64,000 bases of DNA from Octopus vulgaris (lineage: Eukaryota). The translations under genes were made by a program, and so were the position numbers. Numbering within the stretch: position 1 is the stretch's first letter; every line of letters starts with the position of its first letter. The notes beneath the pieces were generated by a model. That model ran no database searches, had not been told where the DNA came from, and worked only from the letters and a program-made list of their open reading frames with translations. Positions 1,148 through 18,960 of this stretch are shown here, in pieces. The DNA is taken from assembly GCA_951406725.2 (NCBI GenBank), contig OX597843.1, positions 19,344,001 to 19,408,000 of the forward strand. The letters run 5' to 3'.

Positions 1148-1332
1148 CTGACGGAAAGTTGGTGAATAAAAGACAGGATGGTCATAGCTGGACAACTGTT
1201 TTATCCTAGGTCTGCTAGATTAGGAGCAACCTAGGGCTAAACATCGAGGGCAAATCAGATAACAACAAGGAAGGACACATTTGATAATGTAGTCCTAGAT
1301 ACACAATGTGTGAAAAAAGATTTTTAATTTAC

Positions 1333-1866
1333 CTTTTTGAAACTTCTGTCCCTTGGTGGTGGTTGTATCTTTCACTGGTTTATTGGCCAAGATATGGAGT
1401 GACACACGGACAATATGACTGGCGTAGACATCGGTGATGAATGTCTCAATGTTGTCATCAAGGAACTCACAGAACTGTAGAAACGATTCCCGTGCTGACG
1501 CCGATCCCTTTTTCGACCCTGCCTTCTTCTTGCACTTCCTCTTTCCACCATCACCATCGTCATCGTCGTCATCACTGACAACGTTGTCTTCTGCGTTACC
1601 CTTGATCTCCTCTTCGTCATGGAGCTCTGCTGGGTCGGCATCGAATGTGGAAGGCAACAGTAGGAGGGTTTTGTGCATGATGTGGCTCGTGCAGCGGTCG
1701 GTGCAGAACTCCATCCGATTCGAGCAGATCATCTGCCACATATAAAACAGGTGCTTTGGTTCAGCATTCTTCAAGAATGTCTCTACATAGTGACTGGCAG
1801 TTTGGTTCTGACACACAGGGACCACCTCCGTCTTCAGCTGGCGGAGAACGTTGAGCAAAAAAATAC
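1333..1866 (-). CDS. NOP9: NOP9-like nucleolar protein 9, coding exon 2 (Pumilio-like repeats)
   Basis: ttttag acceptor and gtaaat donor; 534 nt, in frame with exon 1. IFLLNVLRQL..CQNQTASHYVETFL..CTDRCTSHIM..TDVYASHIVRV is typical of NOP9 PUF repeats. The gene presumably continues left of the window. Confidence 0.8.
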
Positions 1867-3688
1867 CTAAAAAGACAAGATTATTTACAGGATTATACAC
1901 ACACATATCATTTAACATCCGTTTTCCATGCTGGCATGGCTTGGATGGTTTGACAGGGGACCGGCTAGACAGAAGACTGCACCAGACTTGTTGGTCTTTT
2001 GGCTGGATGCCATTCCTAACACCAACCACCTAGCAGAGTAGACCAAGTGTTTTTTTTACATAGCACAAGCACCAGCAAGGCCTGTTTTTGCAGGGTTTTC
2101 ACCCCTGGGTGCCTTTCCAAATGTCAACCATTTTACAGTGTGGACAACACCAACATCAAAATGAAAATCAAATGGAAATTGTAGTTAAGATACCCGTGCC
2201 GGTGACACATAAAATGCACCATCCGAACGTGGCCATAGCCAGCGCCACCTGACTGGCATCTGTGTCGGTGACATGTAAAAGCACCATCCGATTGTGACCG
2301 TTTGCCGGCCTCCTCTGGCCCCTGTGCAGCTGGCACATAAAAAGCACCCACTACACTCACGGAGTGGTTGGCATTAGGAAGGGCATCCAGCTGTAGAAAT
2401 ACTGCCAGATCAGACTGGAGCCTGGTGCAGCCTCCTGGCTTCCCAGACCCCGGTCGAACCATCCAACCCATGCTAGCATGGAAAACAGACGTTAAACAAT
2501 GATGATGATGATATATATGTAGATATATATATATATTTAGAATTCTTTTTCTTTTTTAAATTTTGACCTTGATGCAGAGAAGCTATAACTAATGGTTACA
2601 ATTTTTTGGCACAAGGCCAGTCTGGGGCAATTAGGTTAACCCCAATGCACAACAGGAACTTATTTTAACAACCCTGAAAGTGATGAAAGGCAAAGTTGAC
2701 CCTGGTGGGATCTGAACTCAAACAATGTAAAATGGCTGAAATACTGCAAAGCATTTTGTCTGGGGTGTTGAGGGTTCTGCCAGTTTGTTGCCTTCTACAA
2801 ATAAAAGTGTGAAAATATTGAATTATACCCAAAAAAAAAAAAAAAACAAACTTTGATTTTCCCCATTAAAAGGATTTTTAAAACTCAGTATTGTGACATT
2901 ACTATTTCAAAGCCTTGTGAGTAGATTTGGTAGATGGAAACTGAAAGAAGCCCATCACATATCTATGTGTGCGTTTGTATGTTTGTGTCTGTCCTCTCCA
3001 CCATCGCTTGATAATCGATGTTGGTGGGTTTACGTCCCTGTAACTTAGTGGTTCAGCAAAAGAGACCGATAGAATAAGTAATGGGCTTACAAAGAGTAAG
3101 TCCTGGGGTCAATTTGACTAAAGGCGGTGCTGCAGCATGGCCGCAGTCAAATGACTGAAACAAATAAAAGAATGGAAATCGATCAATGGAAATTGCAGAT
3201 GTGTTACCAGTGCCGGTGGCATGTAAGAGAACCTTCCGTTTCGCGACCGTTGCCAGCCTCGCCTGGCCCTCGTGCCGGTGGCACATAAAAAGCACCATCC
3301 GTTTCGTGGCCGTTTGCCAGCTCTGTCTGGCACCTGTGCGGGTGGCACGTAAAAAGCACCCACTACACTCACGGAGTGGTTGGCATTAGGAAGGGCATCC
3401 AGCCGTAGAAACACTGCCAGATTTGACTGGGCCTGATGCAGCCTTCTGGCTTCACAGACCCCAGTAGAACCATCCAACCCATGCTAACATGGAAAACGGA
3501 CGCTAAACGACGATGATGATGATGATGATATATGTAAAGAATTTGTGTGTGTGTGTGTTCTACAAGATTCCTGGTGTGAAATCCTCTGCTGAAACAGATC
3601 CTTCGGGACAGCCATTTTCCTTTTCTTGCCAGATAAACACACGGATTCTGTGTTCTTTCTTCATTTCAGATTTATTGTTCTTATTTTA

Positions 3689-4006
3689 GGTACTACTAGC
3701 AAACAGCGATCCCGGTGTGCGCACTCGCGCATCCGTGCTAGCGAGTCGTAAGTAGTCGATCCTACAACGACTTGCACCTATGTTTGTATTTCAAGGCTGA
3801 ATCCATATCAAAGAAAATTAAAGAATATTTTTCCAACAAAGTAAATAAAACGCAAAGTAAATAACTTTTAAAAAAAATAAATTATTTTTATAAACAAACT
3901 AAGGTTAGGGTTAGGGTTAAAAAGTCGTTGTAGGATCGACTACGTACGACTAGCTAGCGTGGATGCGTGAGTGTGCGCACTGGGACCACTGTTCGCTACT
4001 ATTACC
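3689..4006. mobile_element. MITE with ~85-bp TIRs, GGTA termini and 9-bp TSD (Merlin-like)
   Basis: TSD cttatttta at 3680-3688 and 4007-4015; TIRs ggtactactagc..gatcctacaacgactt; internal ttagggttagggtta. Confidence 0.8.
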
Positions 4007-15123: not shown

Positions 15124-15880
15124 TCTCTGTCTGGCAACCGTGTCGGTGGCACGTAAAAGCACCGTCCGTTCGTGGCCGTTTGCCAGCTCTGTCTGGCCCC
15201 GTGTCGGTGGCACGTAAAAGCACCATCCGTTCGTGGCCATTTGCCAGCTCTGTCTGGCCCCGTGTCGGTGGCACGTAAAAGCACCTTCCATTCGTGGCTG
15301 TTTGCCAGCTCTGTCTGGCCCCGTGTCGGTGGCACGTAAAAGCACCGTCCGTTCGTGGCCGTTTGCCAGCTCTGTCTGGCCCCGTGTCGGTGGCACGTAA
15401 AAGCACCGTCCGTTCGTGGCCGTTTGCCAGCTCTGTCTGGCCCCGTGTCGGTGGCACGTAAAAGCACCTTCCGTTCGTGGCCGTTTGCCAGCTCTGTCTG
15501 GCCCCGTGTCGGTGGCACGTAAAAGCACCTTCCGTTCGTGGCCGTTTGCCAGCTCTGTCTGGCCCCGTGTCGGTGGCACGTAAAAGCACCGTCCGTTCGT
15601 GGCCGTTTGCCAGCTCTGTCTGGCCCCGTGTCGGTGGCACGTAAAAGCACCATCCGTTCGTGGCCGTTTGCCAGCTCTGTCTGGCACCTGTGCAGGTGGC
15701 ACGTAAAAAACACCCACTACACTCTCAGAGTGGTTGGCGTTAGGAAGGGCATCCAGCCGTAGAAACACTGCCAGATCTGGCTGGGCCTGATGAAGCCTTC
15801 CAGCTTCACAGACCCCAGTTGACCCATCCAACCCATGCTAGCATGGAAAGCAGACGCTAAATGATGATGATGATGATGAT
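15124..15880 (+). mobile_element. RTE 3'-end insertion with ~9 tandem 61-bp subunits
   Basis: 61-bp period (15186, 15247, ...) then the common tail and (GAT)n. About 20 RTE-tail copies occur in the window, e.g. 2140-2510, 3175-3528, 4103-4515, 14215-14646, 20109-20572, 25085-25610, 38490-39050, 48900-49300, 53760-54033, 55503-55800, 57945-58323. Confidence 0.88.
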
Positions 15881-16222
15881 ATGTTGTTGTTGTTTTTGTC
15901 TCATTTGGTCTAAAGTCGTATGACAACCACCGTTATATATATTTTGTTTATCCATTACTGTTTTCAATTTCGTTTTCGTCTCTCGTATTTACATCCGTCT
16001 CGTGCGTTCACATTCCTGTCTTCTACCAAGAAATCTAATGCTTACAGCTTAGTTTTTTTTCTTGGGGCTGGCCGAGTTGGAGCAAATATCAGAATTGAAC
16101 AGCCGAAATTTGCTATGATGGTTCGGTGTCTGACTGAAGATTGAAGGCTTCGAATGATTTGTCTGTGTTCCGTGTTCGTCCCTTCCTGTATTTCACGTTC
16201 ATTATATATAAAAACATTTATT

Positions 16223-16266
<44 letters not shown>

Positions 16267-16432
16267 TATAGCAGTTGTATACTGTCAACTTAGTGTGACA
16301 GTCTCATAAAGGGAATCACACCACTGCTATTTAGCCCTAGGAAGCATCAACACTTTCTGTCAGCCTTGACAATTTCCTGTGTCCTTATGTTTACAAGGGG
16401 CAGAGAAGCACCCCCACCCAGCTAAACCTCCA

Positions 16433-16474
16433 CCCAGAGACTAGTTTCTGAGTCTTGCTCGTCATCAGTCTGGG
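16433..16474 (-). ncRNA. Minimal type-I hammerhead ribozyme motif
   Basis: cccaga-CUGAUGA-cgagcaagacuca-GAAA-cuag-UC-ucuggg: 6-bp stem I, GAG/CUC stem II, palindromic stem III (ACUAGU), GUC site. Confidence 0.7.
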
Positions 16475-16649
16475 GTAGCCATGGCCTGCTAGCTGAAGAT
16501 GCCTGTCTAGACCTTGTAAACCTATATAATTTCAGTGAAGTAAATTCACTGATCACCAAAAATAGAAATATTAAATTTCTAAATATCTCAGAGAGATATA
16601 AGCAGGGGTGCAACCGTCAACTTAACGTTAAGTTGACAGTATACAATGT

Positions 16650-18960
16650 TCGGACGGTGCTTTTTACGTGCCACCTGCACAGGTATCTTAATTACAATTT
16701 CCATTTGATTTTCATTTTGATGTTGGTGTTGACGTACTTGACTCAATAGGTCTCCTCAAGAACAGCGGGTCACTCTACGATCCAAGGTTAGCACAGCAGG
16801 CCGTCCTGCAAGCCATGGACTCACTTCATTTGTTGGGTCTTCACAGTCACAGCATATCTCAGAGCTCTCGGTCTTTGTCATTTCCTCTGTGAGGCCCAAT
16901 GTGCCACTGGCACGGGTATCACAACTACAATATCCATTTGATTTTTATTTTGATGTTGATGTACTTGACACAATAGGTCTCTTCAAGCATAGCAGGTCAC
17001 CCTGCAAACCAAGTTTAGCACAGCAGGCCGTCCTGCAAGCCATGGACTCACTTCATTTGTTGGGTCTCGGTCTTTCGTCATAGCCTTTGTGAGGCTCAAA
17101 GTACAAAGGTCATGCTTGACCACCTCATCCCATGTCTTCCTGGGTCTACCTCTAACCCAGATTCCTTCAACAGTTTGGGAGTGGCACTTCTTCACACATC
17201 TCTCTTCATCCCTCCGTAGTACATGACCATACCAGCACAAACGTTTCTCCTGCACACTGCATCCAATGTTTCTTATACCCAACATTTCTCTCAGGGCGCT
17301 TACACTCTGTCGTGCATGGACACTGACATTACACATCCAGCGGATCATGCTAGCTTCATTTCTTTCAAGTCTACGCATGTCCTCTGCAGTCACAGCCCAT
17401 GTTTCACTGCTGTGAAGCATGGCAGTTCGCACACATGCATCGTACAATCTACCTTTCACTCAGAGAGAGAGACCCTTTGTTGCCAATAGGGGTAGGAGCT
17501 TTCTGAACTTTGCCCAGGCTATTCGTATTCTAGTGGTGACACTCTCTGAGCATCCACCCCTGCTACTAACTTGGTCACTTAGGTAGCAGAATCTATCAAC
17601 TACTTCTAGTTTCTTCCCCTGGAGTGTGATGGAATCTGTTTTCTGAGTATCTGTGTTGTCTATTGCCCCTGTGCATCTGCCAAACATGAAAGCTATCTTC
17701 TCGGTTAATTTTCCTTTGATATTGCTGCACCTCTTATGTGTCCATAGCTTACACTGGGTACATCTTATGGAGTTTCTACCTACACCTTTTCTGCTGATCG
17801 AGCAGGGCCACCTACATGAAGGGGTGTGTGGGGAGTTTGCCTTCCTACTTACTATAACTTTGGTCTTTGCTACATTGACTCTAAGGCCTTTTGATTCTAA
17901 ACCTAGCTTCCACACACAAAATTTCTTCTCTATTTCCAGTAGTGATTTTGCTTCGAGGGCTAAGTCATCAGCATAGAGGAACTCCCAGGGACAACCCGTT
18001 TTGAATTCCTCTGATATTGCCTGGAAGACTATGATAAATAAAAGGGGACTGAAGGCTGAACCTTGGTGGACCCCTACTTCTACCCGGAATTCTTCACTAT
18101 ATTTGTTGCCAATTCTAACTTTGCTAACGGCCTCTCTGTATAGGGCCTGTACAGCCCTTATTAACCATTCATCAATCTCCAGTTTCTGCATTGCCCACCG
18201 GATAAGGGATCGGGGGACCCTGTCAAAGGCTTTCTCCAAGTCCACGAAAGCTATGTAGAGGGGTTTATCTTTAGTTAGGTATTTCTCCTGCAGTTGTCGA
18301 ACCAGGAATATGGCATCGGTGGTGCTTCTACCCGGCACAAAACCGAACTGCATCTCATCTAAGCAAATTCTCTCCCTAATGAGATGAAACTTCCTCACCT
18401 GATCCAACAGTTTAATACCCCTGTAGTTATTCCTATCTAGAGCATCACCTTTACCCTTGTAACAGTTGACTATGGTGCTGATATGCCAGTCATTGGGTAT
18501 GACTCCATTATGAACTACCTGGTTTACAATGCGGGTGACTAGGCCACAGCCCACACCACCCGATGCTTTAAGCATCTCAGCAGTGATTCCTGTTTTCATA
18601 CCCTTAATTGCTTTATCTATTAGGGATCTGTCTATTCGGATAGCTGGTCCCTCAATTGGGTCAACATTTGGCAGGCTCTCCTCCTCCCATTCCTTCTCCA
18701 CATTCAGCAGTCTTTCATAATGGCTTCTCTAAGCCTCTTTCTTTTCAGAAACATTAAAAGCAAGTGCCCCATCATCCATGCGGATGCATTTCTCTCCTGT
18801 GACATCACAATTTTCTCTCACATATTGACTAGTAATCCGAAATACCTCAGTTCTTTGGTCCTCACGTTGCAGGACATTGGCAAACTTCTTCTTCTCCGCT
18901 TCGCTCTTGGCTATGTATACCTGCCGCCCAACCTCCCTTCTGACTACCTGGTACAGTTCC
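16650..18960 (-). mobile_element. RTE-clade LINE, ORF2 reverse transcriptase, decayed
   Basis: ORF 17460-18701 has NYRGIKLL, QFGFVPGRSTTDAIF, FVDLEKAFD, GVHQGS and YADD; continues after a stop (ETWA, RGRPRKTW). 3' UTR remnants at ~16650-17090. Confidence 0.93.

What the first reader, a model, noticed from the sequence alone, without database searches (positions are those of the whole stretch)
16275..16646. 372-bp element with 18-bp terminal inverted repeats, a 22-bp palindrome and the best-formed hammerhead in the window
Seen: ttgtatactgtcaactta (16275-16292) vs taagttgacagtatacaa (16629-16646); perfect palindrome gtcaacttaacgttaagttgac (16616-16637). The minus strand at 16433-16474 gives cccaga-CUGAUGA-c-gag-caaga-cuc-a-GAAA-cuag-UC-ucuggg, with a canonical core, GUC triplet and self-complementary stem III. 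There is no convincing coding capacity. Inference: a non-autonomous ribozyme-bearing retroelement (retrozyme-like or Penelope pLTR derivative) that may be uncatalogued in cephalopods.
Basis: partly seen in the sequence, partly recalled or inferred. Interest (0 to 1): 0.72.

Follow-up and report, generated by a model that had tools for sequence, protein, structure and literature searches.

The report
Octopus retrozyme with Penelope insertion footprint
This is a worn copy of a protein-free repeat of about 355 bases, present many hundreds of times in what is likely an octopus genome; it carries a predicted self-cutting hammerhead RNA motif and was likely pasted in by a Penelope-type retrotransposon enzyme, and its apparent terminal inverted repeats and palindrome are a fold-back scar of this one insertion, not family ends.

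Summary
The strings are real but the anatomy differs. The unit is a ~355-bp, 43% GC, non-coding monomer that also occurs in head-to-tail tandems; 263 exact hammerhead-pattern matches genome-wide versus 0 control. The 18-bp IR and 22-bp palindrome are not TIRs: they are a 22-bp inverted copy of the element's own 3' end, clipped by a neighbouring repeat. Across 165 loci, 72 have head-to-head arms and 0 tail-to-tail; 3' ends fall at two sites ~55-60 nt apart; 40 of 43 scorable two-armed inserts use one site per arm; 32 have TSD-like repeats (mode 12 bp; control 0-5). This is the Penelope-like (PLE) footprint. The type-I hammerhead has a palindromic helix III (UA or AU subfamilies), so it likely needs a dimer; this solo copy likely cannot cut in cis. 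Monomers fold strongly as circles (z -4 to -9); 5' ends do not pile up at the cut. No autonomous partner, cleavage or circular RNA was shown. Verdict: a new family of a known class (metazoan non-LTR retrozymes). This scan has reported similar families and the same two-start footprint on other DNA.

The parts
16267..16626 (-). Direct arm: about one ~355-bp unit. It starts at the fold-back (family position ~326), has a ~19-bp deletion near 16613, and ends at 3' site 1 (...ACAACTGCT, last identifiable base ~16270) in (TA)n.
   Evidence: 89% to a natural monomer over 16610-16266; alignment; 93% to the family majority
16433..16474 (-). Type-I hammerhead motif with palindromic helix III (ACUAGU); predicted cut between 16439 and 16438; predicted to need a dimer
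   Evidence: double-hammerhead fold -22.6 versus cofold MFE -24.0 kcal/mol
16386..16526 (-). Long imperfect hairpin (~45 bp) that extends stem I, with the hammerhead at its tip
16625..16646 (+). Inverted arm: 22 bp of the element's 3' end. Its outer part (the last ~8 bp to site 1 and, by the family rule, likely the tail) is missing.
   Evidence: 100% to monomer 326-347; no further piece found in the window
16616..16637 (.). 22-bp palindrome: the head-to-head fold-back junction of the two arms, centred on TTAACGTTAA
   Evidence: same kind of junction described for PLEs in PMC3846280 (passages)
16225..16270 (.). (TA)n tract at the 3' end, shared with the neighbouring repeat
   Evidence: family 3' flanks are AT-rich or microsatellite
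16647..16720 (.). Unrelated repeat fragment that clips the inverted arm (not part of the element)
   Evidence: 90% match to window 2156-2228

Best explanation
This is one decayed, solo copy of a ~355-bp non-coding hammerhead-bearing repeat (a metazoan non-LTR retrozyme) that was likely pasted in by the reverse transcriptase/GIY-YIG protein of an unidentified Penelope-like element. Shown from sequence: unit size, tandems, two fixed 3' ends ~55-60 nt apart, random 5' truncation, head-to-head arms, ~12-bp duplications, AT-rich targets. Inferred mechanism: (1) tandem copies are transcribed; (2) two hammerheads pair through the palindromic helix III and cut out monomers, which a host ligase likely circularises (about 50% likely, by analogy with mussel and axolotl); (3) a PLE protein, likely a dimer, nicks both strands of AT-rich DNA ~12 nt apart and primes cDNA from both nicks, one at RNA site 1 and one at site 2; (4) the two growing cDNAs meet by microhomology or fold-back, giving either a partial tandem or a head-to-head pair with the tail on one end only. 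In this copy the join at TTAACGTTAA made the palindrome, and a later rearrangement likely clipped the inverted arm. With one hammerhead and a 2-nt helix-III loop, this copy would not self-cleave in cis.
For: Family: 2578 first-look candidates, 40 scored, on many contigs; 263 and 288 exact matches of two patterns versus 0 control; capture-recapture lower bounds ~470 hammerhead-bearing copies and ~1070 3' segments. Unit 350-355 bp in three natural tandems. 3' ends: site 1 63, site 2 32, other 17 of 112 loci; sharp at base level. Arms: 72 head-to-head, 0 tail-to-tail of 165 loci; of those 72, 43 have both outer ends at a defined site, and 40 of the 43 are site1+site2 (p 3e-9 against 50:50); 29 have at least one undefined end. 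TSD-like words >=9 nt in 32 of 165 loci, mode 12, versus 0-5 in 30 shuffles. Two arms of one insert are more alike (92.9%) than between inserts (89.5%) in 44 of 51. Helix III stays palindromic across a double change: UA 82, AU 33, other 2 of 117 (partly pattern-selected). Circular monomer folds z -3.95, -8.89, -6.16, -7.18, -6.81. Long stem: compensatory classes at three pairs (GC42/AU18, CG57/UA10, AU72/GC5 of 83); 68 double-change cells versus 25.5 shuffled. 5' ends: 2 of 96 within 5 nt of the cut, 60 of 96 pass it, so the template was uncut or re-ligated. Intact RT+GIY-YIG PLEs exist in this genome. Literature: tail, inverted 5'-truncated copy, palindromic junction and 8-10-bp TSD in PLEs (PMC3846280, PMC8557442 passages); two adjacent internal RT starts, both-strand cleavage and extension, predicted dimer (PMC11167929); 350-390-bp mollusc retrozymes expressed as circles (PMC7229834).
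Against: No partner found: no DNA similarity between the monomer and 46 GIY-YIG loci or 30 loci of a second PLE family, and no PLE ORF joined to any copy examined. No cleavage or circle shown. Rfam misses the motif, and neither MFE nor RNAalifold recovers the hammerhead fold. Stem II has 0 of 3 covarying pairs. The structure was drawn by me from these sequences, counts sequences rather than events, and one slid control had more double-change pairs (20 versus 14). Core conservation (4 of 384 changes versus 2.7% background, P~0.03) is weak and not CpG-controlled. Only 2 of 112 loci scored as about two or more units. This copy has no TSD and no tail. In PMC11167929 hammerhead cleavage was dispensable for insertion in vitro; in 10.64898/2026.07.22.740005 only 1 of 9 tested dimers cleaved.
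Confidence: 0.8

Rival explanations
1. Same element and same PLE enzyme, but the template is an uncut linear read-through or multimeric transcript; the hammerhead is a PLE inheritance not needed for copying, and no circle is involved.
For: 5' ends ignore the cut site; most inserts are about one unit or less and true multimers are rare; catalytic mutants still insert in vitro and no reads ended at the cut in Anolis (PMC11167929).
Against: The helix III palindrome is kept through a double change; strong fold of the closed monomer; inserts longer than one unit plus tail in 26 of 112 loci; circles shown for a similar-sized mussel repeat (PMC7229834).
Confidence: 0.35
2. The copies are only truncated or solo pLTRs of an autonomous PLE that I failed to sample.
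For: Same footprint as PLE ends; only part of the family and the top 150 hits of each protein search were examined.
Against: The sequence closes on itself: the tail runs straight into the next unit in 31 of 102 tail-bearing segments, there is a pure trimer (L003), and no shared ORF-bearing upstream flank was seen in 52 loci tested all-against-all or by tblastn on 112 loci and 96 segments.
Confidence: 0.1
3. A SINE-like repeat mobilised by a LINE, not a PLE.
For: LINEs make TSDs of this size and 5' truncations and inversions (general knowledge); a LINE RT fragment lies 0.8 kb away.
Against: No poly(A) or simple-repeat 3' end; two internal 3' ends in a sequence that continues; one site per arm in 40 of 43, which twin priming on a 3' tail does not predict.
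Confidence: 0.04
4. A MITE or DNA transposon bounded by 18-bp TIRs that happens to hold a hammerhead-like string.
For: Perfect 18-bp IR in this copy.
Against: Inverted arms vary from ~20 to over 400 bp and are present in under half of loci; they are copies of the 3' end, never tail-to-tail; tandems and 5' truncation are present.
Confidence: 0.01

Closest known systems
Metazoan non-LTR retrozymes (Cervera & de la Pena 2020, PMC7229834, passages and parts 2-4 of 6 read, supplement unreadable; Li, Clavereau & Pollet 2026, 10.64898/2026.07.22.740005, parts 1-3 of 5 read)
   Same: Non-coding 150-450-bp tandem-capable unit, GC under 45%, one type-I hammerhead per unit, short palindromic helix III, TSD longer than 4 bp, strongly self-paired predicted circle, PLEs in the same genome; mussel units are 350-390 bp.
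   Different: Different sequence; mostly dispersed single or partial copies; extra A before GAAA; expression, cleavage and circles untested here. The parts I read do not describe tails, head-to-head arms or two 3' sites for retrozymes.
EN+ Penelope-like element insertions (Adineta Pen2a_Av, PMC3846280 passages; PMC8557442 passages, section 11 and supplement rows; Anolis PAc, PMC11167929 parts 1-2 of 4)
   Same: 5' truncation, partial tandems, inverted 5' copy with palindromic junction, optional tail on one end, TSD, AT-rich or (TA)n targets, 3' ends downstream of a hammerhead.
   Different: No ORF; tail ~55-60 bp rather than 30-40 bp; TSD mode 12 rather than 8-10 bp; partner unknown.
Minimal and variant PLE hammerheads (Cervera & de la Pena 2014, PMC4209133, parts 1-2 of 4 and one supplement file)
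   Same: Extra base between A9 and G10.1, G10.1-C11.1 pair, palindromic helix III with a 2-nt insertion (as in D. virilis), dimer requirement.
   Different: Stem II is short (3 bp) rather than 6-8 bp, stem I is 6 bp plus a long extension, and there is an additional A before GAAA that I did not see in the text read.
Non-autonomous Chlamys elements such as MRC1 (PMC8557442, passage)
   Same: Non-coding PLE-mobilised units with pLTR-like partial tandems and head-to-tail copies.
   Different: Those share 3' sequence with a known autonomous family; none was found here. They belong to a clade reported to lack canonical hammerheads.

Membership tests
Metazoan non-LTR retrozyme | Short non-coding unit (150-450 bp), GC below ~45-50% | tested here: met
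   350-355 bp, GC 0.43, longest ORF 51 aa
Metazoan non-LTR retrozyme | Type-I hammerhead in each unit | tested here: met
   Motif and conserved core in each unit of natural tandems; variant stem II; no Rfam hit
Metazoan non-LTR retrozyme | Head-to-tail tandem organisation with two or more hammerheads | tested here: met
   Met for the family (L003/L014 trimer, L028, L154, L056), rare; not met by the window copy
Metazoan non-LTR retrozyme | No LTR/PBS/PPT; TSD longer than 4 bp when present | tested here: met
   TSD-like repeats, mode 12 bp, in 32 of 165 loci; PBS and PPT not searched specifically
Metazoan non-LTR retrozyme | Self-cleavage of the RNA | not testable with these tools
   Only energy evaluation of a double hammerhead
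Metazoan non-LTR retrozyme | Expression as linear and circular monomers | tested here: inconclusive
   Only assembled contigs of runs guessed to be RNA were available; the circle is predicted by folding only
PLE-type insertion | 5' truncation and partial tandems | tested here: met
PLE-type insertion | Inverted 5'-truncated copy, head-to-head | tested here: met
   72 versus 0 of 165 loci; present in the window copy
PLE-type insertion | Optional tail on one end (two RT start sites) | tested here: met
   40 of 43; not visible in the clipped window copy
Autonomous PLE | RT + GIY-YIG ORF | tested here: not met
Derivative of a named PLE pLTR | Sequence similarity to the pLTR of an autonomous family | tested here: inconclusive
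   None among 76 PLE loci of a few families; most families unsampled; four short motifs absent from the PMC8557442 supplement
MITE / TIR transposon | Constant TIRs at both ends of all copies | tested here: not met

The most novel reading that the evidence does not exclude
A cephalopod viroid-like circular RNA of ~355 nt is copied into the genome by a dimeric PLE protein that primes both strands of a 12-nt staggered cut at once, from two fixed sites on the RNA. The strict one-site-per-arm rule (40 of 43) would be in vivo evidence for simultaneous two-strand priming and for PLE mobilisation of retrozymes, and the N...A-closed, 3-bp stem II would be an active hammerhead variant.
Probability: 0.35. 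Interest if true: 0.6.

Novelty: new member of a known kind. Interest (0 to 1): 0.33.

Why it matters
That PLE enzymes mobilise animal retrozymes is proposed from co-occurrence and pLTR similarity (PMC7229834; 10.64898/2026.07.22.740005) but not shown. Here the insertion footprint itself (tail, head-to-head arms, 12-bp duplication, one start site per arm) points to a PLE enzyme without needing sequence homology, and it gives exact RNA sites to test with the published in vitro PLE assay. The locus itself is an ordinary decayed copy; the class is known, and this scan has noted similar families several times.

Tried and rejected
TIR/MITE reading: rejected. Rfam: no hammerhead in the window at E<=1 or in 16300-16620 at E<=10. 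Partner search: Pfam GIY-YIG scan (150 of 6136 candidates scored) and a second PLE family (150 of 14860); no similarity to the monomer. PLE protein hits near copies (L025, L051, L161, L172, L199, L264, L278) were not joined to the element: L025, L051 and L161 were read and are separate decayed PLEs; the rest were judged from tblastn coordinates only. A relaxed hammerhead pattern (660 matches versus 17 control) gave older unrelated motifs without PLE ORF hits in 13 loci. Hydra-clade proteins were not searched. Cleaved linear monomer as the RT template: rejected, 2 of 96 5' ends at the cut. RNA: no RNA holder listed on record; contigs of runs guessed to be RNA cover family sequence but cannot show strand, ends or circles, and the best contig is another copy, not this locus. 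Missing remainder of the inverted arm: not found in the window. Lunse et al. (small PLE hammerhead variants) is not held, title only seen; it and the unreadable PMC7229834 supplement may bear on whether the extra-A variant or a cephalopod example is already in print. Sampling limits: L001-L030 are best DNA hits; the other loci come from the first 100 listed exact-pattern matches (contigs 1-6), which favours conserved copies; 8 duplicate loci were dropped for the 112 set, 17 more for the 165 set; 4 of 100 listed 3' matches and 3 hammerhead-match loci were not fetched.

Full report
Observation. The IR, palindrome and hammerhead strings are exactly as written. Rfam gives no hammerhead hit, and the 42-nt motif alone does not fold better than shuffles (z -0.56), though the 121-nt context does (z -2.1).

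Family. A DNA search of the 2.8-Gb own genome gave 2578 first-look candidates; the 40 scored gave 88 matches, and no other copy matches query positions 1-32 as a 5' terminus. Two exact patterns match 263 and 288 times versus 0 for controls. Capture-recapture gives lower bounds of ~470 hammerhead-bearing copies and ~1070 3' segments. The 32 best copies average 91.5% pairwise identity; the window copy is 93% to the majority. Natural tandems give a unit of 350-355 bp, GC 43%, longest ORF 51 aa. Family sequence is covered by contigs of runs under three organism labels (A, C, D). The host is likely an octopus; no call names it.

Ends. In 112 distinct loci the 3' end lies at site 1 (after ...CAACT(G/A)CTCTA) in 63, at site 2 (after ...AATATTTCTA, ~55-60 nt further into the next unit) in 32, and elsewhere in 17. 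5' ends are scattered. In 165 loci, 72 have a head-to-head inverted arm and none is tail-to-tail. Of the 72, 43 have both outer ends at a defined site: 40 are site1+site2, 2 site2+site2, 1 site1+site1 (p 3e-9). I ran this cross-table after reading an earlier scan note (e1-8807022). Flanking direct repeats of 9 nt or more occur in 32 of 165 loci, mode 12, against 0-5 in shuffled pairings; the immediate flanks are 73% AT versus 63% further away. PMC3846280 and PMC8557442 (passages) describe this architecture for PLEs, including palindromes at the inverted junction. PMC11167929 shows a PLE protein that cuts and extends both strands and starts at two adjacent internal RNA sites that define the tail.

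The window copy. On the minus strand it is a 22-bp inverted arm (16646-16625), the fold-back palindrome, then about one unit ending at site 1 in (TA)n. The inverted arm lacks even the last 8 bp before site 1 and abuts a fragment of another repeat, so the 18-bp 'TIR' and 372-bp length are accidents of clipping. By the family rule the lost part likely carried the tail. No TSD survives.

Ribozyme. The core is CUGAUGA / GAAA / UC with stem I of 6 bp. The window copy has C-G where most copies have U-A at the outer stem I pair (pair 73-115). Helix III is AC-UA-GU or AC-AU-GU (82 and 33 of 117, linked to subfamily markers): a two-base change that keeps the palindrome, probably one or a few events. 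A 2-nt loop cannot close in a monomer; the double hammerhead evaluates at -22.6 kcal/mol, 1.4 above the cofold minimum. The extra base after A9 and the palindromic helix III match PLE-type hammerheads (PMC4209133). The extra A before GAAA was part of my relaxed pattern and recurs in older unrelated motifs with different stem II sequences (660 versus 17 control). U at the base after A9 (33) outnumbers the opposite-strand CpG change (12), which may reflect a restored 4-bp stem II. The hammerhead sits on a ~45-bp extension of stem I with three compensatory classes; caveats are that I drew the structure, RNAalifold did not recover the hammerhead, and stem II does not covary. Five natural monomers fold as circles at z -4 to -9.

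Template. Only 2 of 96 3'-selected segments start within 5 nt of the cut and 60 pass it, so reverse transcription used uncut or re-ligated RNA. The data cannot separate a circle from a linear multimer.

Partner. The genome holds several RT+GIY-YIG families, one with many intact 781-aa ORFs, but none sampled shares sequence with the monomer, and no copy is joined to an ORF. The PLE link rests on the footprint.

Comparison and novelty. It works like, and meets the sequence-testable criteria of, metazoan non-LTR retrozymes (PMC7229834; 10.64898/2026.07.22.740005), with cleavage and circles untested. It is not an autonomous PLE and not a MITE. Five literature searches showed no description of this family; cephalopod hammerheads are mentioned in PMC6962438 and the PMC8557442 supplement. 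Earlier scan notes list no look-alike of this sequence but describe several similar octopus families and the same footprint. Verdict: new member of a known kind, interest 0.33.

Noticed in passing
window 15880-16225 (+): 3' end of a second, very young repeat (98-99% identity, 2052 candidates, ~723-bp tandem unit, 5'-truncated copies ending in (TA)n, no PLE protein hit) converging on the same TA tract. It holds a CTGAAGA...GAAT string that does not fit a standard hammerhead; permuted forms were not tested.
   Followed up: partly
L200, L189, L208, L259, L299, L060, just upstream of the hammerhead (monomer ~126-137): The same foreign LINE-like 3' end (ends near AATAAA) is joined at one spot in 6 of 155 hammerhead copies (five linked by blast, L060 by eye); in L200 it is a short insert with a ~15-bp duplication. 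This suggests a site-specific hyperparasite (lead from e1-9843625).
   Followed up: partly
monomer positions 137-145: 5' ends pile up here (11 of 96; 2 are the LINE junction and 1 looks like an alignment break). Possible transcription start or RT stall in the long stem; untested.
   Followed up: partly
L091-L098 (e.g. L094:68-1504 and 1426-3768): Very young RT+GIY-YIG PLE family (781-aa ORF, ~4.7-kb unit) with an overlapping upstream ORF of up to 479 aa in another frame; no hammerhead found by my patterns.
   Followed up: partly
L107-L136: Abundant PLE family (14860 candidates) ending in (TA)n, with a conserved minimal hammerhead-like motif whose core reads CUGUUGA instead of CUGANGA.
   Followed up: no
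L283, L284, L286, L287, L291, L293, L297, L302, L304, L306/L307, L309: Older, unrelated hammerhead motifs with a palindromic helix III and an A before GAAA; L306/L307 lie 317 bp apart.
   Followed up: partly
window 1298-2029 (-) and 17463-18728 (-): NOP9-like PUF domain exon, and a reverse transcriptase fragment with no tblastn hit to the PLE protein tested, likely a LINE.
   Followed up: no
run X1 laid on L014 (loose end at 1577): One contig end shows about five A-to-G differences in 30 letters against the family, possibly editing of double-stranded repeat RNA; single contig, and the run is only guessed to be RNA.
   Followed up: no
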